A DNA stretch of 64,000 nt from a virus (IMGVR_UViG_3300034059_000003:1-64000); one strand, 5' to 3'. Numbered from the stretch's first letter, positions 17,450 through 63,728 are shown. Program-made: numbers and translations. Notes: generated by a model from the sequence alone, not told the origin.

Positions 17450-18004
17450 ATGAAAAAGATAAGCACTATCATTATTTTACTTCTAATAATGTCATTTATC
17501 GATATACAGAGTGGATCATCTGCAAGTACATTGAGGTGTTTTTATATAGAGGAAGCACCATCAGTGATAAAAGATAAATTCTCTGATTATTACGATCTGA
17601 TGTCATTAGTAGAAAGCACAGATAATCCTGATGCAATAAATTTCATAGATGCAATGGGGTTGTTTGGATTTATGCCAAATACTCTTTCTTCTCTTGGTTA
17701 TAATATTGATCCAAATTTGTTCAAAATTAACCCTGAGACCTTTCCAGAGAAAGTGCAGAGAGAAGTAATGACCAAATACACTATTCAACATTATAAAGAG
17801 CTTAAATCGCTTATAAATGAGTTTTCCGGAAAGATGATTAATGATACGATAAAAGTAACACCAGCCGGAATGCTTGCTGTTTCTCATCTTAGTGGAATAG
17901 GTGGTCTTAAAAAGCTTCTTCTTGATAATGTTGTGAGGAAAGATACAATAGGTACTACAACCCTTTATTATATGTGGAGATTTCAAAATATAAAAATTAG
18001 ATAG
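17450..18004 (+). CDS. Signal-peptide-bearing lysozyme-like/lytic transglycosylase
   Basis: MKKISTIIILLLIMSF signal/anchor; catalytic-type VESTDNPDAIN..AMGLFGF...TL..LG and TPAGMLAVSHLSG. Confidence 0.7.
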   Translation: MKKISTIIILLLIMSFIDIQSGSSASTLRCFYIEEAPSVIKDKFSDYYDLMSLVESTDNPDAINFIDAMGLFGFMPNTLSSLGYNIDPNLFKINPETFPEKVQREVMTKYTIQHYKELKSLINEFSGKMINDTIKVTPAGMLAVSHLSGIGGLKKLLLDNVVRKDTIGTTTLYYMWRFQNIKIR

Positions 18005-49454: not shown

Positions 49455-50154
49455 TACTTGCCACATTTAAAGTTTCGTTTGAATCATTTACTTTATCAGT
49501 AGGAGCACTCGTTAAAAATTTAAAGTTATCTTCAGTTATCTGGTTGCGGATATAATTCCACATCCATCTATTCATCGGATATTCATCATCGTCACTATAA
49601 CATGCTGTACCATCAATATGCGTGAAGTTTGAAACATCTTCAGGGTTCTCAAATATTCCACGGACGCCTAAGTATCTCATGTATACAAGAAAACTATCAC
49701 CACTCATATTCTTTGATATTACGAGTAGTTTAAGCCCATAACGGAAAGTAAATATCATATTTGAATTCCATCTTCCATTGCCACTAAATCTTGCTCGTTC
49801 AATTGGTACATATGAAAAAGGTCGACTCATTTTATCTATTGGTCCAACGCTGATTATTCCATCACTTTTATTTAACTCGATCGTTTTTGGAATATCAAGT
49901 TTGGTCTGTAAAACTGTATAACCGGTAAGATGTTCTGGACATGAACTCCTGTCTGCAAATTCAAGTTCCATACACAAAGTCTGTATTAACTGTTCATCAA
50001 CTGAATGAGATTTATTCAAATCATTTCGTAACCAGAGGGCTCTTTGATTATGAATCCAGTTCTTTATCATACGATCATCAAGTTTGTCGTCATCATAAAG
50101 ATTAAATTGACGAACTCTCTCTCTGATCTCATATATCATTTCATTTGATGTCAT
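49444..50154 (-). CDS. crAss-like tail ring/tubular protein
   Basis: T.NEMIYEI......DD..LD.R.I..WI..QRA.WL, QTLC.ELE..D...C, T..DIPKTI, VRGIFENP, EYPM. Confidence 0.75.
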   Translation of the reverse strand: MTSNEMIYEIRERVRQFNLYDDDKLDDRMIKNWIHNQRALWLRNDLNKSHSVDEQLIQTLCMELEFADRSSCPEHLTGYTVLQTKLDIPKTIELNKSDGIISVGPIDKMSRPFSYVPIERARFSGNGRWNSNMIFTFRYGLKLLVISKNMSGDSFLVYMRYLGVRGIFENPEDVSNFTHIDGTACYSDDDEYPMNRWMWNYIRNQITEDNFKFLTSAPTDKVNDSNETLNVASNEE

Positions 50155-50900
50155 TACTTGATTTTTTTATATAATAATTGGAATCCTTCAAATACAAAAA
50201 TTCCCGTAAGAGAATGGAACCACCATTGTTGATATACTTTTGGCGGATCATTTACTATCGTAATTTCTGCATTATTGATAGTTAGATATCTATTAGTAGT
50301 AGTAAAAACACCAACGGGCTTTCTTTTAAAAAGCCCATCATTCACATATCCAAGATACATTTGTCCTTTGATCGGAATCTCAAGATTAAAATATATCTGT
50401 CTATTTGCCCGCATACCTGCAATTAAATTAATATCTCTTGTATGCAAATCTATCAGAGTAAAAGGAACACGTAAGTAATCCTTTATCATAGATGAATCTT
50501 TAACTGTAATAAATTCCGATCCTGGTTGAATTGCCAAAGAATCCCTGAGAATCTTTATTGTGCCTTCAAGTTTTGCATTTGCTACAAGACTTTTTAAATG
50601 AAGTGCTTTCAATGTAGAATTCTCAAGGATTCCGGCATCAATGGCATCTTGCTGGGATAAAATCAAAGCATCTTTTTCAAAGACTAACATCTTCAGTCCT
50701 TTGATCTCTATCTCGTATGACCTGATTGAATCACGTTGAGCAATGATATTATATTTTAAGGTATTTCGGATCCTTAAAGTACTATATCTTCCTCCTATGA
50801 AGGAACCAACCATTATCAAAAGAAAGATTATTGTATAGAGAATCTTATTGTTAGATTTCTCCATCTTCTCTTTTATCCAAGCAAGAAACCACTTTTTCAT
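50154..50900 (-). CDS. Membrane-anchored coiled-coil protein (spanin-like candidate)
   Basis: N-terminal TM (ILYTIIFLLIMVGSFIGG), coiled coil, C-terminal hydrophobic WWF..LTG segment; follows the holin and lysin. Start is 50900 or 50864. Confidence 0.5.
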   Translation of the reverse strand: MKKWFLAWIKEKMEKSNNKILYTIIFLLIMVGSFIGGRYSTLRIRNTLKYNIIAQRDSIRSYEIEIKGLKMLVFEKDALILSQQDAIDAGILENSTLKALHLKSLVANAKLEGTIKILRDSLAIQPGSEFITVKDSSMIKDYLRVPFTLIDLHTRDINLIAGMRANRQIYFNLEIPIKGQMYLGYVNDGLFKRKPVGVFTTTNRYLTINNAEITIVNDPPKVYQQWWFHSLTGIFVFEGFQLLYKKIK

Positions 50901-50904
50901 CGTC

Positions 50905-51312
50905 TTATTCTTTTGGTTTGAACCATCCATCTACTTTATCAAGTATGGCTTTAACAAAAGGAATATCGAACATTCCATTTGCTACGAGTCCGGCAGCAAA
51001 ACCATAATAGATAGCTTTAAAGATTGGAAAGTCAGCTGCAAAACCATAATTTAATAAATCTGCTGCAACTATGATAATAATAGAAACTCCCCAGGCTACA
51101 AGTTGTTTTACGAACTTTTTTGTCACCTTAAGAACACCATTTAACATAGCTGCAAAGAAAGCTGATATTACAGCAAGACCTGCCAAAGAACCAAGATACA
51201 CATCCAATTTTGTAATTACATCAAGGATGTTTGTTGGATCAGGAATTTCCTGAGCATTGAGAACTCCAATTGTTACAAATAGTAACCCAAAAATGAAAAT
51301 GATTTTTTTCAT
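50905..51312 (-). CDS. Holin-like multi-TM membrane protein with N-terminal signal peptide
   Basis: MKKIIFIFGLLFVTIGVLNA|Q followed by three hydrophobic helices; adjacent to the lysin. Confidence 0.6.
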   Translation of the reverse strand: MKKIIFIFGLLFVTIGVLNAQEIPDPTNILDVITKLDVYLGSLAGLAVISAFFAAMLNGVLKVTKKFVKQLVAWGVSIIIIVAADLLNYGFAADFPIFKAIYYGFAAGLVANGMFDIPFVKAILDKVDGWFKPKE

Positions 51313-51350
51313 GATGTTTGAAATTTAGTTAATACTGCATTTGAATCTCA

Positions 51351-51818
51351 TTATTGTTTAATAGTAATGAATACTCTATAATTTAGTTTTGCTTTACGAA
51401 CCATCTCTGTTATTATCGTAGAATAAAGTCTTCCATCTACAAGTTGACCTTTTATTTTATTTAATCCTACTCCTATACAACCAAGCGTATCTTCTTTGTC
51501 AACAACAGAATGTATCAAAATACCAGAGAATCCTTTTACCCCTTTTAATCTTGGATATTCTTTTCCATATTTCTTCCAAAACCATAACTCGACTTCATAT
51601 CTTCCACAAGGGATTGCAGTGTCACCATATACTTTCCCTTCTCCCGGATCATTAAAATCTCCATCATTGTTTTTATCAACCAATTCACGAATAGGATCCT
51701 CAAGTGTATCACAAAGAATATTATTTGTCTTTTCATCAGAATAACGATATAAGAATTTACCTATTGTATAGTCTGGTAATAACCATTTTCTGTAAACCTC
51801 AAGTTCTAATGTTTTCAT
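51351..51818 (-). CDS. DUF5675-family putative endolysin
   Basis: YTIGK...CDTLEDP.R...KVYGDTAIP.GRY...V.GFSGILIH...DT.GCI.VG. Confidence 0.8.
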   Translation of the reverse strand: MKTLELEVYRKWLLPDYTIGKFLYRYSDEKTNNILCDTLEDPIRELVDKNNDGDFNDPGEGKVYGDTAIPCGRYEVELWFWKKYGKEYPRLKGVKGFSGILIHSVVDKEDTLGCIGVGLNKIKGQLVDGRLYSTIITEMVRKAKLNYRVFITIKQ

Positions 51819-51821
51819 AAA

Positions 51822-52220
51822 TTATTCTTTTAATGCTTCACCAAGATTTTTTATTCCAATAGTATTCCCATTGTCATTATATGAAAGACCACGTTTTTTT
51901 GCCAGTGATGAAATTACCTTTCTTTGAAAACTAAAGTACTCATTCTGGATCTGTCTAACTTTATCCTGATCATTTTCTTTTATACCGATCAGTTCCTTTG
52001 TCATCAACTGATTACTCTCAAGTATCGCGTCTATAACAAAAAGTGGTGTGTAATCGTCATTTATTTTCTGGACTCTTTCTTCAAGATTGTTCTGAGCAAC
52101 AGTCAGTTTAATTGACAATGTTATCTGTGTAATGCCAACTCCTATAAATACAGACAGAAGAGCAATTATGATCTTCTGCATCGAGTCACCTTTTTCTTTA
52201 GTATGTTCTTTTTTTTCCAT
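51822..52220 (-). CDS. Single-TM coiled-coil protein (lysis-module associated)
   Basis: TM IIIALLSVFIGVGITQITL followed by coiled coil. Confidence 0.55.
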   Translation of the reverse strand: MEKKEHTKEKGDSMQKIIIALLSVFIGVGITQITLSIKLTVAQNNLEERVQKINDDYTPLFVIDAILESNQLMTKELIGIKENDQDKVRQIQNEYFSFQRKVISSLAKKRGLSYNDNGNTIGIKNLGEALKE

Positions 52221-52248: not shown

Positions 52249-54240
52249 TTAGTTCTTTATAAAAGTGTCGTCAAATATTACAAAATCGTTTCCATATTTT
52301 ACGTAATTATTTACCAATGGTGGACTTGATGTAGTAAATTCTACATCACTACCATAACCAGTCCCAGCACTATTTGTTGCATATGCACGAATATGATATA
52401 TAGTTGATGCGGTAAGTCCCGATAAAGAACTTGTAAACGATCCTTCTCCTGTACCATCGGAAGTATGTGTATCTGTCGTAGTAGGATTAATAGATGTACT
52501 CCAACATATTCCTTTAACAGTTACAGTACCATTACCATCAGATGTTACATTACCTCCGGAAGAGGCTGTAGTGGTAGTTATATTTGAAGTGGATGTTGTA
52601 GTAACAGTTGGAACAACAACTGTTATTGTACCATATTGAAAAGCACCTATACTTGGATTTGTACCATCAAATGATTCTCCGTTGAAGTCAAGAAGAATAT
52701 CAAGATCCTGGCCTGCTGTTTTTATTGTTGACGAAGATGTTAAAGTATAATCTCCACCAGATAGATCAGTAAATAATGGATTAACAAAGTAACCATGCAA
52801 TTCCCAACTTAATACACTCTGCAATGATGATAGAGTATTCATATAATACATTGCTGAACTTTCGTTTTCAACAACACGAAGAGAATTACTAACGCGATAG
52901 TAAGCATTATAATCTGCAGTCTGATAAGTTAAATCACGGCCATAGGCACGTACAAAGAGTTCACAACCATTATTGTCGTCAGTACTGGTTGTGTAAAAGA
53001 CATTATTCTTTATTCTAATAGTATCGTTGTTTGCATCAATCCAAACATGTGCCCAAGAAGTTGACTTATGATTTACAAAAGTATTATTATAGATATAAAC
53101 ACTTTGAGCTCCCTCCATATTTATTGAGGCAGATACAGGGGAAATAAAAACATTAGAATAGATATAGAGATTACAAATAGTTGATGAGAGATCAGAATAG
53201 TCATAGTTCTGAACAAAGATCTGATGCACGTCGTTCGTTGCATTATTATTTGTGTCATCAAAACTATTTCTCCGTATAATTGTATTATGAATCTTCATAC
53301 CTGTACCATTGCCTACTGAAATATCAACACCGGTTGTATGATAACAGTTATAAAACTCATTATCTTCTATAATAATGTTTGAAACAAGATATCCACCATA
53401 TAAATGAAAGGAAAGAGCTCTTCTTCCAATATCATGCATCTTACAATTTTTTACAAGCATTTCATTATATATTGCTTGTGTACCATAAGCATCTTCAGAG
53501 TTTTTAATACCTATATATCCTAACTCAAGATTCTGAATTTTTAAACCTGTCTTTTCTTGCCAACCACCATCTGCAGCATCAAACTGAATCCCGGCATAAC
53601 CACAATAAAAAATATTAACGCCATTTATATCGATGTAATTTTGGTAGTTAAGATCTATAATAAACGATTGTTGTGGTATTTCTATAGAAGTATATCTGGT
53701 ATCTGGATCTGTCACAGCATATACATAAACTTTTCCACCTGTGTAATACCAATTATATTCTGCAGTTAAATATGCAATTCCTGTTTTATGTATTCCCCAT
53801 GTTACTGCTCCTGAAGTGCTTTCAAAGAAGACCTCACAACCGCCAGGCCCTGATCGTCCATACATATCAGTTGCATCAGGATCTGTAACAGTCGCATCAC
53901 AAACCCATACATTAGTACTATATGATGACCATGTTGACTTTACAGAACCAAGGATCCTTGGATTATCACCGGTACCATATTTTCCTATGATAATATAATT
54001 TGCTGTAGTTCCACTTCCGGTAAGTGACAACATACCACGAAAAGTGTCACCACACTTGAAAAGGACCTGATCTCCGGCCACAAGAGTTGTAGCATTGACT
54101 TTTGTTATACTTGCCCATGCGAGTACCTCTGTCTGGCCTGAATCGTTGTCATTACCATCAGAAGAACTTACATAATATATTGTCGCATACAATGGAGATG
54201 CGATAAGAACCATCAATAATATAAGAATCTTTTTCATCAT
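52249..54240 (-). CDS. Signal-peptide-bearing right-handed beta-helix (pectin-lyase-like) protein with C-terminal FN3
   Basis: MMKKILILLMVLIASPLYA|TIYYVSSSDGND.NSG-type N-terminus, GD.VLFK.GD.F.G, repeated I.NN.F strands, and an FN3 unit ending RAYATNSAGTGYGSDVEFTT. Confidence 0.78.
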   Translation of the reverse strand: MMKKILILLMVLIASPLYATIYYVSSSDGNDNDSGQTEVLAWASITKVNATTLVAGDQVLFKCGDTFRGMLSLTGSGTTANYIIIGKYGTGDNPRILGSVKSTWSSYSTNVWVCDATVTDPDATDMYGRSGPGGCEVFFESTSGAVTWGIHKTGIAYLTAEYNWYYTGGKVYVYAVTDPDTRYTSIEIPQQSFIIDLNYQNYIDINGVNIFYCGYAGIQFDAADGGWQEKTGLKIQNLELGYIGIKNSEDAYGTQAIYNEMLVKNCKMHDIGRRALSFHLYGGYLVSNIIIEDNEFYNCYHTTGVDISVGNGTGMKIHNTIIRRNSFDDTNNNATNDVHQIFVQNYDYSDLSSTICNLYIYSNVFISPVSASINMEGAQSVYIYNNTFVNHKSTSWAHVWIDANNDTIRIKNNVFYTTSTDDNNGCELFVRAYGRDLTYQTADYNAYYRVSNSLRVVENESSAMYYMNTLSSLQSVLSWELHGYFVNPLFTDLSGGDYTLTSSSTIKTAGQDLDILLDFNGESFDGTNPSIGAFQYGTITVVVPTVTTTSTSNITTTTASSGGNVTSDGNGTVTVKGICWSTSINPTTTDTHTSDGTGEGSFTSSLSGLTASTIYHIRAYATNSAGTGYGSDVEFTTSSPPLVNNYVKYGNDFVIFDDTFIKN

Positions 54241-55724
54241 TCTATTCCTTTAGAGTTTGAATCCATGTATGTTTCTATAGCTGCATTGACATCATCTACT
54301 AAACCTGCCAATGAACCACCAAGATGAACAACAGATATCTGTGCATCACAAAAACGTTTTGGTACTGGTCCAGTTGGCGCATTAATGCAAAGAATATACG
54401 GTTTTGCATAACTATTAACAGCGGTTGAAGTATATGATGCTGTTTCAAGTAAAGTCCCGTTTCTATATAACACTAAATCAGATGAATTTGGCTTATCAAC
54501 TGTCCAATAACCTCTTGATTCACCACTCCATTCATTTGCATAATCTTCTCCACCAGTACTATTAAGACAGTATATAACACCATATGAACCAAATGAAGAA
54601 GAAAATTGATTGTATGCATTACCATCATTAGTACATCCGAACATCCATTTACCTTCTGTTGCTGTGTACCCAACACGAACATAAAGTCCATAAGATGCAT
54701 TGTTTAGTGTATATTTAGTCAAATTACTAAGATACATTCCACCAGCTTCAAGATAACCATTACTCGTATCATCTCCACCTTCAGTTGCAGTACCTTTAAA
54801 TCCTTCATATGCTGTAAATACCGGGGTATTATGAATGATAGAATTATAAGTACCAGGATTCTTCCAATTGATTAAAGCCTCTGAACCACTATTTGAATGA
54901 GTGGCAAATACATAGAATATATCAAATGTTGTCCAGGCACCACACGCTTTCAATGTTTTAACCAGTGTATTCTGATTGGATCCAACCGCTACAGACGGTT
55001 TATTGGTCATTGCATTATAAACAGCATAATATTCATCAGTATATATATCACCAGCTTCAAATAAATCACCGAGAGTTACTCCATTATTATAACCAGTTAT
55101 ACCTGCCTTTCCAGAAGTATATTCTGTTACTGTAGCTGAACCACTTGTGCCAACACCAGTATCAACTGATCCATTTAGATATGCAGTTATGGTAGTACCA
55201 TTAATTTCTAATCTTACAGTAGCACCTGCACTTATTGATGCAGTACCTGCTGATCCAAGATTTGTCTTTACACCATTATCTATTCTAAATAAACGCTGTG
55301 TACCATTCATTACATAGTAACCATATCCACAAGTTGTAGCCCCAGTACCAGATAATCTAACACCAACTCCCATTGCATCACTTACATCACCAACATTTGA
55401 TATTGTTATTTGTGCATATTGATTTGTACCGAAAGTGGCATCATATTGAGCAACTGTAACTGAAGTAGAAGTATAAGACTGAACTAATCTCGCACCATTT
55501 CCACCATCATATACAGTAATGGAATTTAATAAAACATCCCAATTACCTTGTCCATTTAGAGATGCTACAGAATAGGTGTTGAAGTTATCCGTATATGCCG
55601 GACCATAATGTAATGTTTCTCCTGAAGGAACACGATATGAAGAGGCAACTACGCCAGGTATTACCTGTGATGTTACAGATAGCGATACTATAAGTAACGA
55701 TAGAAGAAATGTTAACTTTTTCAT
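54237..55724 (-). CDS. Signal-peptide-bearing lectin/LamG-like (beta-sandwich) fibre-associated protein
   Basis: MKKLTFLLSLLIVSLSVTS|QVIPGVVASS; G/T/S-rich beta domains (VRLEINGTTITAYLNG, LVLYRNG). Confidence 0.6.
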   Translation of the reverse strand: MKKLTFLLSLLIVSLSVTSQVIPGVVASSYRVPSGETLHYGPAYTDNFNTYSVASLNGQGNWDVLLNSITVYDGGNGARLVQSYTSTSVTVAQYDATFGTNQYAQITISNVGDVSDAMGVGVRLSGTGATTCGYGYYVMNGTQRLFRIDNGVKTNLGSAGTASISAGATVRLEINGTTITAYLNGSVDTGVGTSGSATVTEYTSGKAGITGYNNGVTLGDLFEAGDIYTDEYYAVYNAMTNKPSVAVGSNQNTLVKTLKACGAWTTFDIFYVFATHSNSGSEALINWKNPGTYNSIIHNTPVFTAYEGFKGTATEGGDDTSNGYLEAGGMYLSNLTKYTLNNASYGLYVRVGYTATEGKWMFGCTNDGNAYNQFSSSFGSYGVIYCLNSTGGEDYANEWSGESRGYWTVDKPNSSDLVLYRNGTLLETASYTSTAVNSYAKPYILCINAPTGPVPKRFCDAQISVVHLGGSLAGLVDDVNAAIETYMDSNSKGIE

Positions 55725-57553
55725 GCTTCAATGTCTCCAATTAAAATCCATGTATCTGTGTCTGTCTTAATTATAGTGCAACTGGACCATTGTACTCTAA
55801 GATCCTTATAACTTCCAGCACTATTAAGCGTACCTCCTGAAGTAATTGCTATTGTCGTTTCTCCTGCACCACCCTGTATAATTGTAATCTGTGTTCCTGT
55901 TGGAAAAGCAACTGAAGAATTAAGAGGAATAGTAAATGTATTGGCAGATGCATTAGTCATCGTAACAATCTTATAAGCATCACCAATTACTGCTGTATAC
56001 GTTGTTCCTGTCTGTGCATTAAGAGTAACACTCTTTGGTGCTTTTGCATCAAGTTGTGTTTGTACAGCACTTGTTACACCATCCATATATGCAAGTTCAG
56101 TAGCATCTACAGAACTTACTGATGTTCCCCATGCAGATCCTGTTGAAATAGGAATTCCGGCTCCAGGATATACCATACTACCACTACCATTTGCAACCCA
56201 AGATCTCGTTCCTCCAGTTGTTGAAGATAGAACATATCCAGTCGTTCCTGGATTACCAAGAGAACTTTCTTTTGCTGCAAGACCTGTTGTTAAATCATAA
56301 TTTGATGCATAATGTCCCGAGCCAGGTACTGAGTCTGCAATCATCACTGCTAAACTTGATAAAGAAATTGCACCACCAAGTCTTGCAGAAATACTATCAT
56401 TAATCAATGTTGGGATAGTAGACATCGCATATGCTGTAGTTGCTATCTGTGTAGTATTTGTCTTTGCAGTAGCAGTTGGAGCAATTGGAACCCCTGTTAA
56501 TGTTGAACTTGTAAGTATTGTCTCTTTTGATTCATTAGTAACGTTACCAAGACCAACATCAGATGAAACAAGAGAAAGGGCAGTTTTAAAATTTGCAACG
56601 GATAAGGTTGAAATAGTATTATCAGCATTAAACCTTGGAAATGTTATTGCTCCTGGATTTGTAAGAGTAAATATATTACTACCTATTGTTGTCGCTCCTA
56701 ATGACGTTCTTCCTGTAGCAGCTGTCAATCCTGTTGCACCACCGTCCCACTTAAGACGGTCTGTATAAGCAGTAACTGCATTAGTGCCGTTAGTATTTAC
56801 CCAAGTATATGCAGTATTCCAATTCGTTGAGTTATCTGTTATTGACGTACCCCAAGCAGAAGAACCTCCATAAACAACAATTCCGGCTGTTGCCGGCCAT
56901 GTCATTGATCCTCCACTACCATTTGCAACCCAAGATCGTACTCCGGCTGCCGAAGAAGATAATACATAACCATCAGTTCCTGGATTACCTAATGCTGCTT
57001 CTGCAGATATAGCAGTTCTGAAGTTTGCTGCACTTAATGTCGAAACAGTATTATTAGCATTTATTTGAGGAAATGTAATGGCACCAGGATCTGATAGTGT
57101 AAAAAAATTGCTACCAACTGTTGTTGCACCAAGAGATGTTCTACCAGTTGCAGCAGTAAGTCCAGTAGAACCTCCATCCCATTTTAATCTATCTGTATAA
57201 GCTGTTACGGCATTAGCCCCATTTGAATTAACCCAAGTATAAGCGGTATTCCAGTTTGTAGAGTTGTTTGTTATACTCGTTCCCCAAGATGTACCTGCAG
57301 AAACAGCAATGCCGGCAGTAGGATATACCATTGTTCCACCACCGGAGTTATAAACATAGTCACGTACATCTTGTAATGATGCTACAGTGTCAGTTGTTCC
57401 AATAAGGAGTGTTGCTTTATTAAAGGCGACAGAATCCTTAAAGAATGATTTGTATCTTATAGGAACCCATCCATTTGATAATCTGAATCTCGTTTGACCG
57501 CATGAGATCAATGTAAAACAGATTAGAACCGAAATGATTAGACTTTTTTTCAT
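55721..57553 (-). CDS. Signal-peptide-bearing tail-fibre-like protein with internal duplication
   Basis: MKKSLIISVLICFTLISCG|Q; T/A/G-rich repeats; C-terminal fibre domain TLNAQTGTTYT...FTIP.N.SVAFP.GTQI.I.Q.GAG...K.DTDTW.LIGD. Confidence 0.7.
   Translation of the reverse strand: MKKSLIISVLICFTLISCGQTRFRLSNGWVPIRYKSFFKDSVAFNKATLLIGTTDTVASLQDVRDYVYNSGGGTMVYPTAGIAVSAGTSWGTSITNNSTNWNTAYTWVNSNGANAVTAYTDRLKWDGGSTGLTAATGRTSLGATTVGSNFFTLSDPGAITFPQINANNTVSTLSAANFRTAISAEAALGNPGTDGYVLSSSAAGVRSWVANGSGGSMTWPATAGIVVYGGSSAWGTSITDNSTNWNTAYTWVNTNGTNAVTAYTDRLKWDGGATGLTAATGRTSLGATTIGSNIFTLTNPGAITFPRFNADNTISTLSVANFKTALSLVSSDVGLGNVTNESKETILTSSTLTGVPIAPTATAKTNTTQIATTAYAMSTIPTLINDSISARLGGAISLSSLAVMIADSVPGSGHYASNYDLTTGLAAKESSLGNPGTTGYVLSSTTGGTRSWVANGSGSMVYPGAGIPISTGSAWGTSVSSVDATELAYMDGVTSAVQTQLDAKAPKSVTLNAQTGTTYTAVIGDAYKIVTMTNASANTFTIPLNSSVAFPTGTQITIIQGGAGETTIAITSGGTLNSAGSYKDLRVQWSSCTIIKTDTDTWILIGDIEA
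56573..57286 (-). repeat. Two ~94-aa direct repeats (57005-57286 and 56573-56854; period 432 nt)
   Basis: WGTSIT.NSTNWNTAYTWVN.NG.NAVTAYTDRLKWDGG.TGLTAATGRTSLGATT.GSN.FTL..PGAITFP occurs twice. Confidence 0.9.
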
Positions 57554-58125
57554 TAGTATATTATTTTAATTCGTACATCATCAATTGCATCAGAAGAATA
57601 CACGGTAATTACATAAATACCACCGACAAGACTTATTATTGGATCACCAAGATTCTTAGTAATCACAATACCATCAGAATCAATGAACTCAATATTATAT
57701 GGTTCATATGTCAATGTTGTAGTAATTATGTTATTACCAACAACAAGATCTTGTGTTATTGTATATTTTGCCATGTCGGAAACAGTGTTAGTTGTTGGAG
57801 TAGTAACAATAGGAGTTGTATTTGAACTCCTTTCATAGTTATATCTGTCCAGTTCGCGGTAAGCATCGTCAATTATACTTTGGATATCATTAACAGTAAG
57901 TACATTATAGTATTCTGTTACAGCAACATCACCTATTACCTGATAACGATAAAGTATCTCAATATACTTTGAAATTAAGATGTTTCTTTTATTAAGGTTG
58001 GCAAGAAATAACTGACCTCCTGTATGATAAGCAAAAGACTTTGACAGGTCTTCAGCAAGACGACTATGCAATAATTGAATTGTTGCTATATCACTATTCA
58101 ATATATTCTGATCCAGAACTTGCAT
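57553..58125 (-). CDS. Hypothetical (probably structural) protein
   Basis: 190 aa, coupled to both neighbours; helical N-half, beta-rich C-half after a T/P linker. Confidence 0.55.
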   Translation of the reverse strand: MQVLDQNILNSDIATIQLLHSRLAEDLSKSFAYHTGGQLFLANLNKRNILISKYIEILYRYQVIGDVAVTEYYNVLTVNDIQSIIDDAYRELDRYNYERSSNTTPIVTTPTTNTVSDMAKYTITQDLVVGNNIITTTLTYEPYNIEFIDSDGIVITKNLGDPIISLVGGIYVITVYSSDAIDDVRIKIIY

Positions 58126-60475
58126 TTGCTTTTAAATTATCAAATGTTAAACTATCAACAATATAGTTAATTCTATTATCTTGGGACATCCATTTAGAAA
58201 TTAAATCCCTTTCTGCTATAGTGTTATGATGAGAGGAAGGTTTTATTTTTTCTTCAAGAAAATAATGACTTTTTTCACTTTGAAAAAATGTGAATCCAGA
58301 AATAATTATATTCTTAAATCCAAGAGCTCGGGCTATTCCAATAGCCATTATGCCTACAGTTGGAAATGCATTTATCTCTTCCGTAACTTCTCTGAATAAC
58401 ATAGCAAAAGCATCATTATTTCCATAAGTATAAACTACATTGCCATTCTTTATTAATTTCTCAGCATTATTCAACCAATGTAGATGCATCATTTTTGCAG
58501 AAGTATATTTTTGGTACAAATTATCTGATATCGGAAGAACACCAAGTATTGGATAATCAACCTTTCCAGAAGGGATAATCTCATGATAAAGACTCGAAAT
58601 ATTAAGATCTATTTTTGATCCGATTTCTTTATATTGTTCTCCTATCTTGAAATTATTACATCTCATAACAAAAGAATGATCAATTTTATCTGAGAGATCT
58701 GTTCTGAATGGACCATTCCCTATTACTGAACAGGTATCGAAATCTTTACACAGTTTCTCTATTTCAGTAAATAGAAAATTATATTTGTCTGATTTATAAT
58801 CAGGAACCTCTTTCTTTAAAGAAACTTTATCCTTGAACCGTCTTGATGCTTGATGATGTGAAACTACTGGATTATCACACTGTAAAAATTGATTATCCCA
58901 AATATAAATATACTCTTTTGGTAAATCAGCAACAATTATATCAGTATATCCACTAATCACCAATTGGAAATTAGGTGCATCGGGATTATTGTTGGTTGAA
59001 TTTAACTGAATCCACTTATTTAATATTTCTCTTGTTACAGTATTGTTTTTAAAATACATTGTCCCGGTCATCTTTTCATTCCACTCTTTTATATAATGGA
59101 ATGAAATATCACAATTAAGAGAATAAAAGAATTCAGGATCTCTTAAAACTTCAGCATCAGCATCAATCCATACAACATCTTTGTTGTATTTATCCATTAC
59201 ACTCTTTATAACTTGTGGTTTCATTTGAGTGTTTAATTCCCAGGATCCCTGATTCCTTAATCCAACAATTTCATAAGGCAAATTAAACTTATCAAGAGAC
59301 TTCTTTAGTGTTTCAACTTCTTTTTCATATGGTGTGTCTGAAGTAAACATGCTGACATATATTATATCGTTCTTTCCAGACATAGAAAAATTCAACTTAT
59401 CTTCAATGAATTTAAGATTTTGTTCATTCTGATTACGTATGTCTTCTGGAATTCCATCACAGAACTTTACCATTAATGCATGTTCTTTTGCCTGTATAAA
59501 ATTACCAATCCAATAATAACAGATAGCAAGTTCGAAATCAGCCTGGAATCTTTTATTTGTTAAATGAATAAACAGTTTATCCGTCTTTGGATATGACATT
59601 CTTAATACTTCTTCCTGTATAATTCGTGCAAGATGATATTTCTTTTTCTCGCGATAAATCAATCCAAGCATAAACAAGGCCTCAAATCTTGTTGGCCGAT
59701 ATGAATAGGCTTCTGCTAATTGTATTGTTGCACTATCATAATTCTTAAGATGATACTGAAGAACTCCTATCTGGAATAATGAATAGTAAACCTCTTCTTC
59801 CCAACCCATTCTACGAACTCTTTCTTCATAATATTTTATAGCTTTTTCATATTCTTGCATATTGGCATATGTCTGAGCCAGATAGAAATAGTTCCGTGTT
59901 TCATTTGGATTATCGACAATTGCTTTCTCAAGTAGATCTCTATCACGAACAAGTTTTTCCTTTCTTGATCCACCATCGGCATGATGAATAATAGATAACT
60001 CATGTAATTCAGGACTTTCTCCACAATTAGTTGAATTGATATATTCATGTGTTACTCCAGTATAGAACCAATGCTTATTGCCATTTACAAGGAGTATCTG
60101 AGCGAAATCAAGATCACCAAGATATCTTAAATGATACCAATCATACTTCAATGTGTTTTTGTCAAATGAATCTAAGATGACATATTCAAAATCAGCATCA
60201 GCCAATAATAAATAACTCGACTTGTCATAAGCGAGTTCCATCAATTCATTCCTATTATGTCCAAAATTAACCCAAGATCTTTCGTGTATTTCTCCTGGAA
60301 TATCTCCCATTGTTTCTTTTATCACTGCGATTGTGTTATCAGTAGATCCAGTGTCAACAATGCAGTAATAATCAATAATTGACTTACAACTATTGATTAA
60401 TCTTGCAATTGTTTTTTCTTCTTGTTTAACAATTGCACATAAACAGATAGTTTTGTTTGTTACTGTTGATTCCAT
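58094..60475 (-). CDS. Multi-domain glycosyltransferase: GT2 + TPR + second GT-A domain + GT29 (sialyltransferase)-like domain
   Basis: LCAIVKQEE..I.RL..S......IVDTGSTD and DAD (GT2); TPR helices; W..NT.MKP..I....VVWIDADA and HHQASR; CSVIGNG...VMRCNN, PTVG..AI...IIISGF and HH...ER (sialylmotif L/S/VS-like). Confidence 0.82.
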   Translation of the reverse strand: MESTVTNKTICLCAIVKQEEKTIARLINSCKSIIDYYCIVDTGSTDNTIAVIKETMGDIPGEIHERSWVNFGHNRNELMELAYDKSSYLLLADADFEYVILDSFDKNTLKYDWYHLRYLGDLDFAQILLVNGNKHWFYTGVTHEYINSTNCGESPELHELSIIHHADGGSRKEKLVRDRDLLEKAIVDNPNETRNYFYLAQTYANMQEYEKAIKYYEERVRRMGWEEEVYYSLFQIGVLQYHLKNYDSATIQLAEAYSYRPTRFEALFMLGLIYREKKKYHLARIIQEEVLRMSYPKTDKLFIHLTNKRFQADFELAICYYWIGNFIQAKEHALMVKFCDGIPEDIRNQNEQNLKFIEDKLNFSMSGKNDIIYVSMFTSDTPYEKEVETLKKSLDKFNLPYEIVGLRNQGSWELNTQMKPQVIKSVMDKYNKDVVWIDADAEVLRDPEFFYSLNCDISFHYIKEWNEKMTGTMYFKNNTVTREILNKWIQLNSTNNNPDAPNFQLVISGYTDIIVADLPKEYIYIWDNQFLQCDNPVVSHHQASRRFKDKVSLKKEVPDYKSDKYNFLFTEIEKLCKDFDTCSVIGNGPFRTDLSDKIDHSFVMRCNNFKIGEQYKEIGSKIDLNISSLYHEIIPSGKVDYPILGVLPISDNLYQKYTSAKMMHLHWLNNAEKLIKNGNVVYTYGNNDAFAMLFREVTEEINAFPTVGIMAIGIARALGFKNIIISGFTFFQSEKSHYFLEEKIKPSSHHNTIAERDLISKWMSQDNRINYIVDSLTFDNLKANASSGSEYIE

Positions 60476-60512
60476 TTTTCCTGTCTTAAATTTATACTTT
60501 GAATCTTCATAT

Positions 60513-60520
60513 CAAAGTTA
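60513..60520 (-). promoter_or_regulatory. Putative Bacteroidota sigma70 -7 element upstream of the glycosyltransferase
   Basis: TAACTTTG on the - strand in the 52-nt gap, about 38 nt upstream of ATG60475; same 8-mer as 775-782. No clear -33 box. Confidence 0.45.
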
Positions 60521-60527
60521 TATCATT

Positions 60528-61880
60528 TTATGTATGAAACACATTTGTCCAATCATTATCGTATGCACAAATAGCCTGAGTCGATAATCCTAACCAAGCA
60601 GTTCCATCTATTACTTCAGGAATTAAAACACCACTTCTTAAATGTTTGCATGCATAATTCTGAACCATCCATACTTGACCACCTATTAGAACCGTGTCAT
60701 AAATATTACCATCATAATCAGAAACCTTTTCTCCTTCAGTATATCCAGTTAAATTGTCTCTTATTAACCTTATCGCACACCCTTGTTTTTTAATAATAGA
60801 TCTTGCTAATATTGCTTCTCCGGTAGCAACAAATTTATTCGCATATGCATTTACTCCATATGATAAACTATCTTCTGTATTTGTCCACAGTTCTCCAACA
60901 TTCTTTAATTGTTGAAAATTAGCAACTAATAAACCGTTTCTTATACCATTTCCTACTGCTGTAAATCCTGAACTATTTGTTGCACCCTCATCGTCACTAA
61001 TCCAATGTATTATTCCAGTTTCTCTGCAGGCTTTATTTACTTCTATCAAAGTACTCCAATTATTAAATAATGTTTGGTATTCGGATGTAGAAGGAATATG
61101 CCATCCTATTGGTGGTGTTAATGCATTATTCGCAGCGTACCAATTATATAAAAGACCATAATTTATTACATTACTATAACCAGGTAAAAATACATAATCC
61201 CAATTATTGTCATAAGCACAACATCCTGGTGTAATTAATTCAAACCATGAATTAGCATTTTGTACTTCTGGAATTGGAACTCCATTTGAAAAATGTGTTA
61301 CAGCAAGATTTTGTTGAAGCCAAACCTGCGTACCAATCTTTACAGTAGTATAAATATTTCCATCATAATCTCTAACTACCATTCCGGGATACCATTGAGA
61401 CGTATCTATTAATAGACATCTTATCGACATACCCCATTTTTTGTCATCGTTTGCAGGTGATCCTCCAACTACTGTATACGCATATTCATGTATAGAATCA
61501 TATCTTATTTGTTGAACATAAGTTAGGTTATTATGAAAATATCCAGAATTTTTTAATCCATCAAAATATGGAGATACATTATAAATACTATATCTCCAAC
61601 CACCGCCAAATATTGTAAGTTTTGAACTGTTTGTTGCGCCAGTATTAGGATAATTCCAATGGATATATCCAACTTCTTTACATTTACCTCCTGCAATTGA
61701 TATTCCACCAAGATAATTCCATAATGTAGTCCAATCGGCTAAAAGTGGAACTTTCCATCCTATAGGAGCAATTCCATTTGAACTATTGGCTGCATACCAA
61801 TTATAAAGTAAACCATATGAAATATTAGATACTGGTCTTATAGAATTAAGTAATGATCTGAAGATAGAAGAACTTCTCAT
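60528..61880 (-). CDS. Tandem, circularly permuted FISUMP (Fib_succ_major) domain protein
   Basis: Two ~219-aa units, each YGLLYNWYA...GW..P...ATNSS...G..IR(C)L followed by DYDGNIY.TV.IG.QVW..QN...CAYDN.W. Confidence 0.8.
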   Translation of the reverse strand: MRSSSIFRSLLNSIRPVSNISYGLLYNWYAANSSNGIAPIGWKVPLLADWTTLWNYLGGISIAGGKCKEVGYIHWNYPNTGATNSSKLTIFGGGWRYSIYNVSPYFDGLKNSGYFHNNLTYVQQIRYDSIHEYAYTVVGGSPANDDKKWGMSIRCLLIDTSQWYPGMVVRDYDGNIYTTVKIGTQVWLQQNLAVTHFSNGVPIPEVQNANSWFELITPGCCAYDNNWDYVFLPGYSNVINYGLLYNWYAANNALTPPIGWHIPSTSEYQTLFNNWSTLIEVNKACRETGIIHWISDDEGATNSSGFTAVGNGIRNGLLVANFQQLKNVGELWTNTEDSLSYGVNAYANKFVATGEAILARSIIKKQGCAIRLIRDNLTGYTEGEKVSDYDGNIYDTVLIGGQVWMVQNYACKHLRSGVLIPEVIDGTAWLGLSTQAICAYDNDWTNVFHT

Positions 61881-61883
61881 TTC

Positions 61884-63728
61884 TTATTGTGTATATGGTC
61901 CTCCAATATTCCAATAGAATCCGGTATTATCATAGATAAACGATACTATCGTTCTCTCGTTTGGTCCTGTGAATATGTTTTTTTCAGTACCATCTTTGAA
62001 ATAATTTGTTCCTGTAAAAGACAAAGAATGTCCGCCAGAGGCATCTTGAAAAACAAGTAAATTTCCACATTCCCCGCTTAGAACATTTGATAATATAATA
62101 GTCGTATTCTGTGTTAAGAATAATTTTGCATTATATCCTTGTGAAAGATTCCAATGAACACCTGCAGTTGAATTATCAAGTCTCAGAAATGCCTTTTGTG
62201 CTTCAGCTGGTCCTGTAGGACCTATTAATCCTTGTGAACCGGAAGGACCAGTTGGTCCCATAGAACCTTGCATTGCTTCAACAAACAATCTTGCCTTCAT
62301 TACCTGAAGATATCCACTACCTGTTGATCTCCTATATCTTCCTTTAATAGTATGTGACCCTATAGATAAAGCATCAAACCTTACTATTACAGGAATCATT
62401 TGTGGATTTAATGAATCAAGATATATTTGATGTTCTCCAGAGTCTACACCATCAACTTGAACAGCAAGTGCAAGAGTAGATGCACCACCAGCACCTCTTG
62501 TTGTATCAAGTCTTACTTCACAATTTAACGTAATGAGTAACTCAACAGATTCATTCAAAATAATTGTTGTAATGACACCAGAAATATCTTCTAAAGTCGA
62601 TGATACTGTTCCTGAAGAAGTAAGTTTCTCAATATATGAACTTGGTATTTTACCTGCAATAGCATCAATACCTGCAGGACCAGTAGACCCTTGTACTCCT
62701 GTTAGCCCAATTGGACCAGTTGGTCCGGTTATTCCTTGTGCTCCTATTGAACCAGTCGATCCTTTTGAACCTGTAGGACCTACAGATCCTGTATTGCCTT
62801 TTGCACCTGTAGGACCTGTTACAGATAATCCAGATGCGCCTGTCGGCCCTATTGGACCTGTTGGACCCAAAGGTCCTGTTGGACCGGTTACAGACGGTCC
62901 AGTACTACCTTGTGGACCGGTAGGACCCGGTGCATATGCGCCACCATAAAGATTTATTTTCCAATCAGAGTAAGTTCCTGATCCAGTATGATTTATCGAT
63001 TGTACTGATAATTCTCCTGAAGCACCGGTATAATTAACAACTGATGCTCTGAATAAGTTATTAACATCATAAGCAATAACAACATCTTGTCCTGTTGTAT
63101 ATGCTCTTCCTGTAGAACAAGTTATATCTATTCCTATAGGATGTGACGATGGGATTACTATTGTATCGGAAGATAAAGATGCATATCTCTCTCCTATTCC
63201 GGTTGCACCTGTTGGACCTTGTATCCCTTGTGGACCGGTTGGTCCTGCAGCGGTTGATGCGGCTCCGGTTATACCGGCAGGTCCTACTGCACCGGCTGGA
63301 CCTGTTGGACCGGTATTTCCTTGTGGACCTGTAGGTCCTTGGACACCTGTTGGACCGGTAGATCCCGGTATTATAGATGCTGGACCAGTTGGTCCTGTAC
63401 TTCCTTTTGATCCTGCCGGTCCTGATGGTCCGGCAATTCCTTGTATTCCGGTTGCACCTTTTATCCCAATTGGACCTGTCACACCTTTAGGTCCTACTGT
63501 TCCTGTAACACCACGCGGTCCAGTTGGTCCTACACCTTGAGGTCCTGTTGGTCCTACTGCACCGGTAGGTCCTCTTTGTCCTGCCGGTCCAGGAATACTT
63601 GTACCTGGTAAGACTGTTAATCCTGAGAGAATAATGTTTTTATTATCATTCCTTGCAGGTTCAACTGCATAACCAGAACTCCCAGTAATAGAGGGAGATG
63701 GTCCTAAGAATTGTGCCCCAGTACTCAT
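61884..63728 (-). CDS. Collagen-like (Gly-Pro-Thr-rich) tail fibre protein
   Basis: Three G-X-Y blocks separated by globular domains; C-terminal W.LS.GYNA.L.LT.N......N...G....L...QD..GG domain. Confidence 0.85.
62670..63590 (-). repeat. Collagen G-X-Y repeat blocks (63192-63590 and 62670-62927; short third block ~62200-62275)
   Basis: GPT/GPQ/GAT/GST triplets; Thr is frequent at the Y position. Confidence 0.9.

What the first reader, a model, noticed from the sequence alone, without database searches (positions are those of the whole stretch)
52249..57553. Three consecutive tail-fibre/spike-like genes all carry Sec signal peptides: an exported fibre system?
Seen: MMKKILILLMVLIASPLYA|T (beta-helix+FN3), MKKLTFLLSLLIVSLSVTS|Q (lectin-like) and MKKSLIISVLICFTLISCG|Q (fibre repeats; the Cys could alternatively be a lipoprotein site). 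The genes are translationally coupled and sit between the fibre genes and the lysis genes. In the second, the signal precedes VIPGVVASS, a motif I recall at the extreme N-terminus of phage fibre-associated proteins. Established: tailed-phage fibres normally assemble in the cytoplasm. Inference: these proteins fold in the periplasm and join virions at lysis, or decorate the infected cell (receptor masking, adhesion, depolymerase) in a carrier state.
Basis: partly seen in the sequence, partly recalled or inferred. Interest (0 to 1): 0.8.

Follow-up and report, generated by a model that had tools for sequence, protein, structure and literature searches.

The report
Phage tail-fibre module with export signals
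A crAss-like phage from wastewater puts its Bacteroidota host's secretion signal on three consecutive tail-fibre-type genes (a fibre, a lectin and a sugar-cutting enzyme), so this host-recognition gear probably matures in the periplasm, whereas textbook tailed-phage parts are all made in the cytoplasm.

Summary
P1 (55721-57553), P2 (54237-55724) and P3 (52249-54240), all on the minus strand, are translationally coupled and lie between fibre genes and the lysis cassette. Each starts with a textbook Sec leader; P1 and P2 have Gln at +1 (the Bacteroidota Q-rule).

The leaders look functional. P3's closest relative, in a syntenic crAss phage, starts exactly at P3's predicted cleavage site. P2's mature end QVIPGV matches the extreme N-terminus of the partner of the knob-bearing minor tail protein in Gordonia phages. 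Leader presence is all-or-none within a module and flips between sister proteins.

The same cassette (leader-fibre with C-terminal knob, leader-PGVxAS partner, leader-beta-helix, then lysis genes) recurs on unrelated phage backbones. There is no T9SS C-terminal domain.

P2 models as two ConA/LamG-like lectin domains. P3 is a beta-helix CAZyme related to secreted bacterial enzymes.

Analogous, barely homologous leader-bearing proteins of two cultured Cellulophaga phages are annotated as found in virions by MS/MS. My best reading is Sec-exported fibre parts that reach the tail after holin action (about 0.5). The main rival is exported proteins that are not virion parts (about 0.3).

This scan has noted the same phenomenon on many other phage genomes. 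I found no paper describing it for fibres.

The parts
57553..58125 (-). 190-aa leaderless small protein directly upstream of P1 (TAATG overlap). It is a candidate adaptor or hub-side partner of the fibre.
   Evidence: Its C-terminal 70 aa are 41% identical (E 2e-10) to the 111-aa gene that precedes the P1-type leader-fibre in the unrelated phage contig L012. No Pfam or PHROG family matched.
55721..57553 (-). P1, 610 aa: Sec leader, conserved mature N-terminal motif (Q..GW.P.R.K..F.DSV.F), fibre repeats, C-terminal knob.
   Evidence: Of 119 homologues, 47 (first heuristic; 46 by the stricter one) have a leader. Q at +1 is invariant in alignment A1. PHROG tail and virion families match the C-terminus.
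57497..57553 (-). P1 signal peptide (aa 1-19), predicted SPase I cut ..SCG|Q. LISC also fits a lipobox.
   Evidence: Q at +1 in 38 of 46 leader-bearing homologues. The Cys position is not conserved as a lipobox in relatives.
55724..56050 (-). P1 C-terminal knob domain (..TWILIGDIEA).
   Evidence: 38-59% identical to the knobs of leader-fibres in L011, L012, L089 and L038 and of Gordonia and Shewanella phage minor tail proteins; the L008 knob is far more divergent at 18%. 19,619 cluster representatives match at E<=1e-3.
54237..55724 (-). P2, 495 aa: Sec leader, docking-type N-terminal peptide, and two ConA/LamG-like jelly-roll (lectin) domains.
   Evidence: AF2 model with pLDDT 61. Foldseek hits include laminin LG4-5, CBM40 and the Pan3 tailspike. 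The C-domain falls in virus-only Atlas clusters. In other phages it is fused to Phage_tail_2 tail-tube proteins or sits at the tip of a P1-like fibre.
55638..55724 (-). P2 signal peptide (aa 1-19, cut ..VTS|Q) plus the mature N-terminal peptide QVIPGVVASS.
   Evidence: The same leader+Q+(V/I/F)..PGV.AS sits on the gene after the knob fibre in L011, L012, L089 and L008. Gordonia partner proteins begin M-IPGV or MVLPAP with no leader.
52249..54240 (-). P3, 663 aa: Sec leader (aa 1-19, 54184-54240, cut ..LYA|T), right-handed beta-helix CAZyme that starts at mature residue 1, FN3-like domain (about 52321-52533), short C-terminal tail.
   Evidence: AF2 pLDDT 85. Foldseek top hits are GH136, GH120 and BT_1002, then the K1 capsule lyase and Pel9A. 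Homologues either carry a leader (many also carry the T9SS CTD PF18962) or start MA[IT]YYV. No CTD is present here.
50154..52220 (-). Adjacent lysis cassette: 132-aa signal-anchor coiled-coil protein (51822-52220), DUF5675 endolysin without a leader (51351-51818), 135-aa leader+Q multi-TM holin-like protein (50905-51312), 258-aa TM coiled-coil protein (50154-50930).
   Evidence: The arrangement (fibres followed by lysis genes) matches crAss001 gp22-26 followed by gp27-30.

Best explanation
P1, P2 and P3 are a late-expressed tail-fibre module whose proteins are sent through the Sec translocon of a Bacteroidota host and cut by signal peptidase I. P1 and P2 obey the Q-rule, so their new N-terminal Gln is probably cyclised.

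In the periplasm, P2 (a tandem lectin) most likely docks by its newly exposed N-terminal peptide (pyroGlu)-V-I-P-G-V onto the C-terminal knob of the P1 fibre. P3 is a beta-helix glycan-cutting enzyme that travels the same route.

The endolysin has no leader, so lysis needs a hole-forming holin. Once the inner membrane is opened, tails from the cytoplasm and fibres from the periplasm can meet. The module then ends up on, or with, released virions as host-recognition and glycan-cutting gear.

Shown by sequence comparison: leader features, the register of the cut site, module conservation, the folds, and the absence of a T9SS signal. Inferred: actual export, the P1-P2 docking, and attachment to virions.
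For: Leaders and coupling:
-.
- Q at +1 is invariant in the P1 family alignment. It is found in 38 of 46 leader-bearing P1 homologues, against a 16% background for [AGSCT]Q. This is the Bacteroidota-specific rule (PMC5837995, PMC10653852).

Register of the cut site:
- P3's sister, in a syntenic crAss phage, starts MATYYV at P3's cut site.
- P2's mature end aligns with the initiator-proximal IPGV/VLPAP of Gordonia partner proteins, which follow a homologous knob fibre.

A module working in one compartment:
- The whole module has leaders here and in L011, L012, L008, L038, L106 and G005. It has none in L005 or crAss001.
- Leader status of neighbouring genes is coupled: 10 of 21 versus 1 of 50, Fisher p 7e-6.
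- Leader state flips between well-supported sister pairs.

Position: the module sits at the canonical fibre locus, followed by lysis genes.

Virion link by analogy:
- Cellulophaga phi18:3 gp085-087 all carry leader+Q and are annotated from experimental MS/MS as structural or tail proteins.
- In phi10:1, gp091-095 all carry leader+Q, and gp091-094 have that MS/MS annotation.

The P2 C-domain is fused to tail-tube proteins in other phages.
Against: - No signal-peptide predictor and no experiment were available; the leader calls are my own heuristic.
- No tailed phage is known to assemble parts from two compartments.
- The phage has other, leaderless fibre candidates: the 614-aa collagen-like protein, the FISUMP lectin, and lectin arms on the muzzle. 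The trio is therefore not obviously needed on the virion.
- P3 has no N-terminal particle-binding domain and resembles monomeric cellular enzymes.
- Homology to the MS-supported Cellulophaga proteins is marginal: P1 versus phi10:1 gp094, E 1.6e-4 in a tiny database. MS of purified particles cannot exclude co-purifying free fibres.
- A bona fide capsid protein in contig G005 also has a hydrophobic N-terminus. Such ends therefore do not always mean export.
Confidence: 0.5

Rival explanations
1. The three proteins are exported but are not virion parts. They form a periplasmic, and after lysis free, fibre-lectin-glycanase complex. It strips or binds host surface glycans to aid release, to stop progeny sticking to debris, or to open neighbouring cells' capsules. 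Alternatively it remodels the envelope of the infected cell.
For: - The same leader evidence as for the best explanation.
- P3's beta-helix starts at mature residue 1, with no anchor domain. Its nearest folds are monomeric CAZymes, and many relatives are T9SS-secreted bacterial enzymes.
- Leaderless fibre candidates exist elsewhere in the genome.
- The module abuts the lysis cassette here and in L011 and L012.
- Frequent gain and loss of the leader is easy to tolerate if the end location is simply 'outside after lysis'.
- Q-rule leader proteins of unknown function in P. gingivalis prophages were read as envelope modifiers (PMC10367356).
Against: - The P1 knob plus P2 peptide pair is homologous to the terminal minor-tail-protein pair of Gordonia siphophages.
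- The P2 C-domain is a tail-tube decoration elsewhere.
- Analogous Cellulophaga proteins were detected in virions.
- In the complete siphophage G005, the only large proteins after the putative Dit/Tal-position genes (269 and 728 aa, unannotated) all carry leaders.
- The genes are translationally coupled to the late structural operon.
Confidence: 0.3
2. The hydrophobic N-termini are not export signals in vivo. They could be uncleaved membrane tethers, propeptides removed by a phage protease, or sequences left over from gene capture. The proteins would then assemble in the cytoplasm like ordinary fibres.
For: - The G005 capsid protein, and P. gingivalis phage capsid proteins, carry signal-like N-termini although capsids assemble in the cytoplasm.
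- The closest relatives of all three genes work without leaders.
- No predictor or experiment was available.
Against: - The Bacteroidota-specific Gln at +1 is conserved across very divergent leaders.
- The positive-inside n-region predicts that the C-terminus goes out.
- Leaders end exactly where leaderless relatives begin.
- Leaders are co-ordinated across the genes of a module.
- This crAss-like phage's own capsid protein has no such end.
Confidence: 0.13
3. The trio is a passenger (moron) cassette of host-type secreted glycan-binding and glycan-degrading proteins with no role in infection.
For: P3 relatives are cellular secreted enzymes. The cassette moves between phage backbones.
Against: - The P1 and P2 families are overwhelmingly viral.
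- The cassette always sits at the fibre locus.
- It is coupled to structural genes.
Confidence: 0.05

Closest known systems
Leader-bearing 'structural / tail' proteins of cultured Cellulophaga phages: phi18:3 gp085-087 (NC_021794) and phi10:1 gp091-095 (NC_021802)
   Same: - Three to five consecutive genes at the end of the structural module, just before holin and endolysin genes.
- Each has MK(K) + hydrophobic core + small residue | Q.
- They include fibre-like and beta-helix 'pectate lyase' proteins.
- The host is Bacteroidota.
- All but phi10:1 gp095 are annotated as virion proteins from MS/MS.
   Different: - Only marginal sequence similarity to P1, and none to P2 or P3.
- The phage backbones differ (Pachyviridae podophage, Assiduviridae siphophage).
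- As far as I could find, the leaders were never discussed. The source paper (Holmfeldt et al. 2013, from my own knowledge) is not in the library.
Terminal minor-tail-protein pair of Gordonia siphophages (e.g. Wizard gp35/gp36, Kita gp30/gp31, Bizzy gp40/gp41)
   Same: - A homologous C-terminal knob, 44-49% identical.
- It is followed by a partner whose extreme N-terminus is (M)IPGV or MVLPAP.
- Lysis genes come next.
   Different: - No signal peptides (Actinobacteria host, cytoplasmic assembly).
- The partner is a 198-aa protein of another fold family.
- Virion presence rests on annotation only.
crAss001 tail-fibre genes gp22-gp26 (PMC10172136)
   Same: - Same position in a crAss-like genome: fibre, tailspike and lectin genes directly upstream of the lysis cassette.
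- Same mix of fibre, C-type lectin and beta-helix proteins.
   Different: - None has a leader.
- The first 26 residues of gp22 dock in the tail hub. No equivalent is shown for P1.
Bacteroidota Sec/SPase I substrates obeying the Q-rule (PMC5837995, PMC10653852), and Q-rule proteins of P. gingivalis prophages (PMC10367356)
   Same: The leader architecture, and Gln at +1 in P1, P2 and the 135-aa lysis-cassette protein. That phage genes can use the rule has already been noted.
   Different: The published phage cases are small proteins of unknown function in temperate phages. Here the substrates are the fibre, lectin and glycanase genes of a virulent-type crAss-like phage.
T9SS-secreted beta-helix proteins of Bacteroidota (Pfam PF13229 + PF18962)
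   Same: 40-49% identity to P3 over about 80% of its length, with the same leader|T.YYV start.
   Different: P3 has no C-terminal sorting domain. It has an FN3-like domain and a short tail instead, so it is not T9SS cargo.

Membership tests
Sec / signal peptidase I signal peptide (Bacteroidota Q-rule type) | Positively charged n-region, 10-15 residue uncharged hydrophobic h-region, small residues at -3 and -1, total length 18-22 | tested here: met
   All three proteins, by direct reading and by my own heuristic. SignalP was not available.
Sec / signal peptidase I signal peptide (Bacteroidota Q-rule type) | Gln at +1 of the cleavage site | tested here: met
   P1 and P2 yes; P3 has Thr, as its cellular relatives do. 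Q is invariant in alignment A1 and occurs in 38 of 46 leader-bearing homologues.
Sec / signal peptidase I signal peptide (Bacteroidota Q-rule type) | Actual translocation and cleavage | not testable with these tools
   Comparative support only: leaderless relatives begin at the predicted +1 position.
Bacterial lipoprotein (SPase II), for P1 | Lipobox [LVI][ASTVI][GAS]C, with the Cys conserved in relatives | tested here: inconclusive
   LISC fits a lipobox in P1. In relatives the Cys sits at -2 of an invariant Gln in non-lipobox contexts (..LQLCS|Q), or is absent. No acidic surface-export motif follows the Cys.
Type IX secretion cargo | C-terminal sorting domain (PF18962 / TIGR04183) | tested here: not met
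   No hit in Pfam or NCBIfam for P1, P2 or P3, although many P3 relatives have the domain.
Phage tail fibre with C-terminal knob (Gordonia 'minor tail protein' type) | Homologous C-terminal knob domain at the end of a repeat-rich fibre | tested here: met
Phage tail fibre with C-terminal knob (Gordonia 'minor tail protein' type) | Presence in the virion | not testable with these tools
   Only by analogy with the MS/MS annotations for Cellulophaga phages.
Trimeric phage tailspike / depolymerase, for P3 | Right-handed parallel beta-helix with a CAZyme-like fold | tested here: met
   AF2 pLDDT 85. Foldseek hits to GH136, GH120, PL9 and the K1 lyase. Catalytic residues were not identified.
Trimeric phage tailspike / depolymerase, for P3 | N-terminal particle-binding or anchor domain ahead of the helix | tested here: not met
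   The first beta-strand starts at residues 21-24, directly after the leader. The L008 homologue instead carries the 15-aa PGVAAS peptide.
Concanavalin A-like / LamG lectin, for P2 | Jelly-roll beta-sandwich fold | tested here: met
   Two such domains in a moderate-confidence model (pLDDT 61). Foldseek probability is 1.0 to laminin LG4-5 and CBM40. The split homologue in L005 hits Pfam Laminin_G_3. Sugar binding was not tested.

The most novel reading that the evidence does not exclude
In a large set of Bacteroidota phages, of podo-, sipho- and crAss-like types, the receptor-binding fibres are built in the periplasm and join cytoplasmic tails only after the holin opens the inner membrane. That would be a two-compartment virion assembly pathway. 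Host signal peptidase I would create the docking N-terminus (pyroGlu-VIPGV) that plugs a partner protein onto the fibre knob.
Probability: 0.4. Interest if true: 0.9.

Novelty: new variant of a known kind. Interest (0 to 1): 0.74.

Why it matters
Tailed-phage virions are taken to assemble entirely in the cytoplasm, and the absence of signal peptides is even used as an argument that a protein is a virion part (PMC6199706).

A conserved, mobile fibre module addressed to the Sec pathway would have several consequences:
- Host recognition proteins of many Bacteroidota phages, including crAss-like phages of gut and wastewater, would mature under periplasmic conditions: pyroGlu capping, disulfides and periplasmic chaperones.
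- Annotation pipelines would mis-sort them as bacterial surface proteins.
- Recombinant fibres or depolymerases should be expressed from the mature end.

The question is directly testable in the cultured Cellulophaga phages phi18:3 and phi10:1.

Tried and rejected
- Nucleotide search of the 5.3-kb region against cultured phages: no match.
- P3 pattern scan of IMG/VR: no relative.
- T9SS C-terminal domain: absent.
- Bacteroidota O-glycosylation sequon D[ST][AILVMT]: not enriched in P1-P3, and not different between leader-bearing and leaderless P1 homologues. The invariant DSV in the P1 N-terminal motif stays unexplained. This differs from earlier scan notes on other phages.
- The 190-aa upstream protein versus the 196-aa protein at the same place in L005: no similarity. 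Atlas look-up of the 190-aa protein: nothing usable.
- A profile of the P1 mature N-terminal motif was too weak to search with. The single exhaustive search went to the knob instead.
- Cultured Bacteroides phages B40-8 and crAss001: fibres have no leaders. tblastn with the G005 leader-fibre found no cultured Bacteroidota relative.
- Holmfeldt et al. 2013 is not held, so the MS/MS claim rests on GenBank notes.
- The tree is the quick IQ-TREE search, because the careful one did not finish. My strict heuristic mislabels a few leader-bearing rows as leaderless.
- No RNA holder was listed for the region.
- SignalP, DeepTMHMM and multimer folding were not available.
Full report
**Setting.** The window is the first 64 kb of an 85.9-kb IMG/VR virus record (CheckV 88% complete). 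Its genes mark it as crAss-like: CrAss ring proteins 1 and 2 and a muzzle gene downstream of the region, a crAss-type capsid further up, and a giant polymerase polyprotein. Near-identical DNA occurs in wastewater metagenomes from two studies.

**Observation.** Three ORFs lie on the minus strand:
- P1: 55721-57553, 610 aa.
- P2: 54237-55724, 495 aa.
- P3: 52249-54240, 663 aa.

They follow a 190-aa gene. The start/stop overlaps are TAATG, ATGA and ATGA. They are followed by four lysis-type genes: a signal-anchor coiled-coil protein, a leaderless DUF5675 endolysin, a 135-aa leader+Q multi-TM protein, and a TM coiled-coil protein.

Each N-terminus has two Lys, an uncharged hydrophobic core and small residues at -3/-1. 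The cuts read ..SCG|Q..VTS|Q and ..LYA|T. A home-made scan of all 74 ORFs in the genome flags only six: these three, the 135-aa protein, and two on the other strand. Three in a row has a chance of about 0.02 under random placement. No Met lies near the cut sites, so no leaderless isoform is encoded.

**What the proteins are.**
- P1 is a repeat-rich fibre with a C-terminal knob of about 110 aa. PHROG tail and virion families hit this knob. It is 44-49% identical to the C-termini of Gordonia phage minor tail proteins (38% to a Shewanella phage one). The knob family is very large: 19,619 cluster representatives at E<=1e-3, and some proteins carry many tandem copies.
- P2 models, at moderate confidence, as two ConA/LamG-like jelly rolls. 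Its C-domain belongs to virus-only clusters. In other phages that domain stands alone, is fused to Phage_tail_2 tail-tube proteins, or forms the tip of a P1-like fibre.
- P3 is a confidently modelled right-handed beta-helix (pLDDT 85) followed by an FN3-like domain. Its best structural matches are monomeric CAZymes (GH136, GH120, BT_1002), then capsule and pectate lyases. The helix starts at the first mature residue, so there is no tailspike-type anchor domain.
- None of the three has a T9SS sorting domain.

**Are the leaders real signals?** Four independent comparisons say yes.
1. Gln at +1 is the Bacteroidota-specific Q-rule (PMC5837995, PMC10653852). It is invariant in the P1 family alignment. 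It occurs in 38 of 46 leader-bearing P1 homologues. An [AGSCT]Q pair is present in 43 of 46, against 23 of 140 leaderless proteins. All four leader-bearing P2 homologues have Q at +1.
2. P3's nearest relative is 58% identical and lies in a syntenic crAss-like contig, L005. It starts MATYYV, exactly at P3's predicted +1. About ten more relatives start MA[IT]YYV. Most others have a leader|T.YYV start, and many of those also have a T9SS CTD, so they are cellular secreted enzymes.
3. P2's mature end QVIPGVVASS recurs as leader+Q+(V/I/F)..PGV.AS on the gene that follows a knob-bearing leader-fibre in four other phage contigs (L011, L012, L089, L008). In Gordonia siphophages, the gene after the homologous knob-bearing minor tail protein begins (M)IPGV.. 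(Bizzy gp41) or MVLPAP.. (Wizard gp36, Kita gp31). Cleavage at ..S|Q would therefore put the same peptide at the extreme N-terminus that these leaderless relatives have by translation.
4. Leaders are co-ordinated within modules. The whole module has them here and in L011, L012, L008, L038, L106, G004 and G005. None has them in L005 or in crAss001 gp22-26. In IMG/VR loci, 10 of 21 neighbours of leader-fibres carry leaders, against 1 of 50 neighbours of leaderless fibres (p = 7e-6). On the P3 tree, the leader state flips between four well-supported sister pairs, and at least eight changes are forced (quick search only).

Proteins that must meet each other therefore gain or lose the leader together.

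**A mobile cassette.** The same order recurs on unrelated backbones: a crAss-like podophage, an HK97-type contig (L008), a myophage-like contig (G001/L011), and a contig with a 3,607-aa ORF (G002/L012). The order is:
- a small leaderless protein;
- a leader-fibre with knob;
- a leader-PGVxAS partner;
- a leader-beta-helix;
- lysis genes.

In L008 the partner is itself the beta-helix. The C-terminus of the 190-aa upstream protein is 41% identical to that of the 111-aa protein upstream of the L012 fibre, which shares P1's mature N-terminal motif. A cytoplasmic protein thus co-varies with an exported fibre's N-terminus.

In the complete 47.7-kb siphophage G005, the tape measure, a 269-aa, a 728-aa and a 136-aa protein are followed by three large leader+Q proteins. 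No other fibre candidate is present.

**How common.** By my heuristic, leaders are present on:
- 47 of 119 P1 homologues (first heuristic; 46 by the stricter one);
- 17 of 58 complete fibre ORFs in IMG/VR loci, most of them (11) at 31-42% GC;
- 20 of 145 top knob representatives.

**Fate of the proteins.** The model crAss001 has leaderless fibres gp22-26 at the same locus, and the first 26 residues of gp22 dock in the tail hub. B40-8's fibre is also leaderless.

Following a lead from earlier notes of this scan, I checked two cultured Cellulophaga phages myself.
- phi18:3 gp085, gp086 and gp087 carry MK.. hydrophobic ..|Q leaders and sit just before the holin-like and endolysin genes.
- phi10:1 gp091-095 do the same, after the tape measure.
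- GenBank annotates phi18:3 gp085-087 and phi10:1 gp091-094 as structural, tail, tail fiber or pectate lyase proteins 'based on experimental MS/MS proteomics analysis'.

Homology to P1-P3 is marginal, so this is analogy, and co-purification cannot be excluded. It does show that leader-bearing fibre-type proteins can end up with particles.

The endolysin here has no leader, so lysis needs a hole-forming holin, which would let the two compartments mix.

**Verdict.** Export through Sec and cleavage by SPase I is the well-supported part, at about 0.8. For the fate of the proteins I weigh:
- attachment to virions after holin action: about 0.5;
- an exported but non-virion complex (release factor, receptor-destroying enzyme or free depolymerase-lectin): about 0.3;
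- no export at all: about 0.13, kept alive by the signal-like N-termini on capsid proteins in G005 and in P. gingivalis phages;
- a passenger cassette: about 0.05.

Receptor masking in a carrier state is unlikely given the coupling to late structural genes. For P1, SPase I cleavage before Gln is favoured over lipidation, because Gln, not Cys, is conserved.

**Novelty.** The literature I could search treats the absence of signal peptides as typical of phage virion proteins (PMC6199706). It mentions Q-rule leaders only on small unknown proteins of P. gingivalis prophages (PMC10367356). I found no description of leader-bearing tail-fibre modules. This scan has flagged the same phenomenon on many other genomes.

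New in this report:
- the cut-site register evidence: P3 versus MATYYV, and the VIPGV end shared with Gordonia partners;
- the knob-plus-peptide pairing;
- the all-or-none behaviour of the module.

Noticed in passing
L163:976-2388 (complete IMG/VR siphophage G005): A bona fide major head protein (phrog_10, E 3e-23) starts with MRTKK plus two hydrophobic stretches. This is a signal- or TM-like N-terminus on a capsid protein, echoing the 'signal peptides on capsid proteins' reported for P. gingivalis phages. It has no Gln at +1.
   Followed up: partly
window 50905-51312 (-): A 135-aa lysis-cassette protein with a cleavable-looking leader (..VLNA|QE) followed by two or three TM segments. It looks like a holin-like protein that itself obeys the Q-rule.
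   Followed up: no
window 17450-18004 (+): A 184-aa ORF in the plus-strand (replication / early) block also has a strong leader (MKK + 13 hydrophobic residues). No family was found.
   Followed up: no
window 52340-52400 versus 43395-43456 and 44007-44047: The FN3-like domain of P3 shares 76-83% nucleotide identity over 40-60 bases with the FN3 repeats inserted in the muzzle gene. This suggests domain exchange between the exported enzyme and a core tail protein.
   Followed up: no
P0247; P0006, P0008, P0010, P0011: The P2 C-terminal ConA-like domain is modular. It forms the tip of a leader-bearing P1-type fibre (P0247), and it is fused behind Phage_tail_2 major-tail-protein domains in leaderless proteins.
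   Followed up: partly
P0255 (3206 aa), P0256 (2401 aa): The P1 knob domain occurs as tandem arrays of up to 22 copies in giant proteins, so it is a general beta-sandwich module and not only a fibre tip.
   Followed up: no
L046, L050, L054, L061, L078 (IMG/VR contigs, 49-58% GC): Fibre-repeat proteins with leader-like N-termini (L054 and L061 end in classical AXA-type sites without Gln; L046 has ..VLA|Q) also occur in higher-GC viral contigs. The phenomenon may therefore not be confined to Bacteroidota phages.
   Followed up: no
C-termini of P3 (window 52249-52330), L011:8560-8621, L012:8790-8847, L038:5810-5873, L106:3545-3598: The beta-helix proteins of these modules end in a similar short hairpin-like tail (..Y/R-N/S-G-x-x-x-I/L-K-I..). 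It may be their attachment element.
   Followed up: no
window 58094-63728 (-): Upstream of the module lie leaderless fibre-type genes: a collagen-repeat protein (614 aa), a FISUMP lectin tandem (450 aa), and a GT2-TPR-GT29-like glycosyltransferase (793 aa). The phage therefore carries both a cytoplasmic and an exported set of fibre-like proteins.
   Followed up: partly
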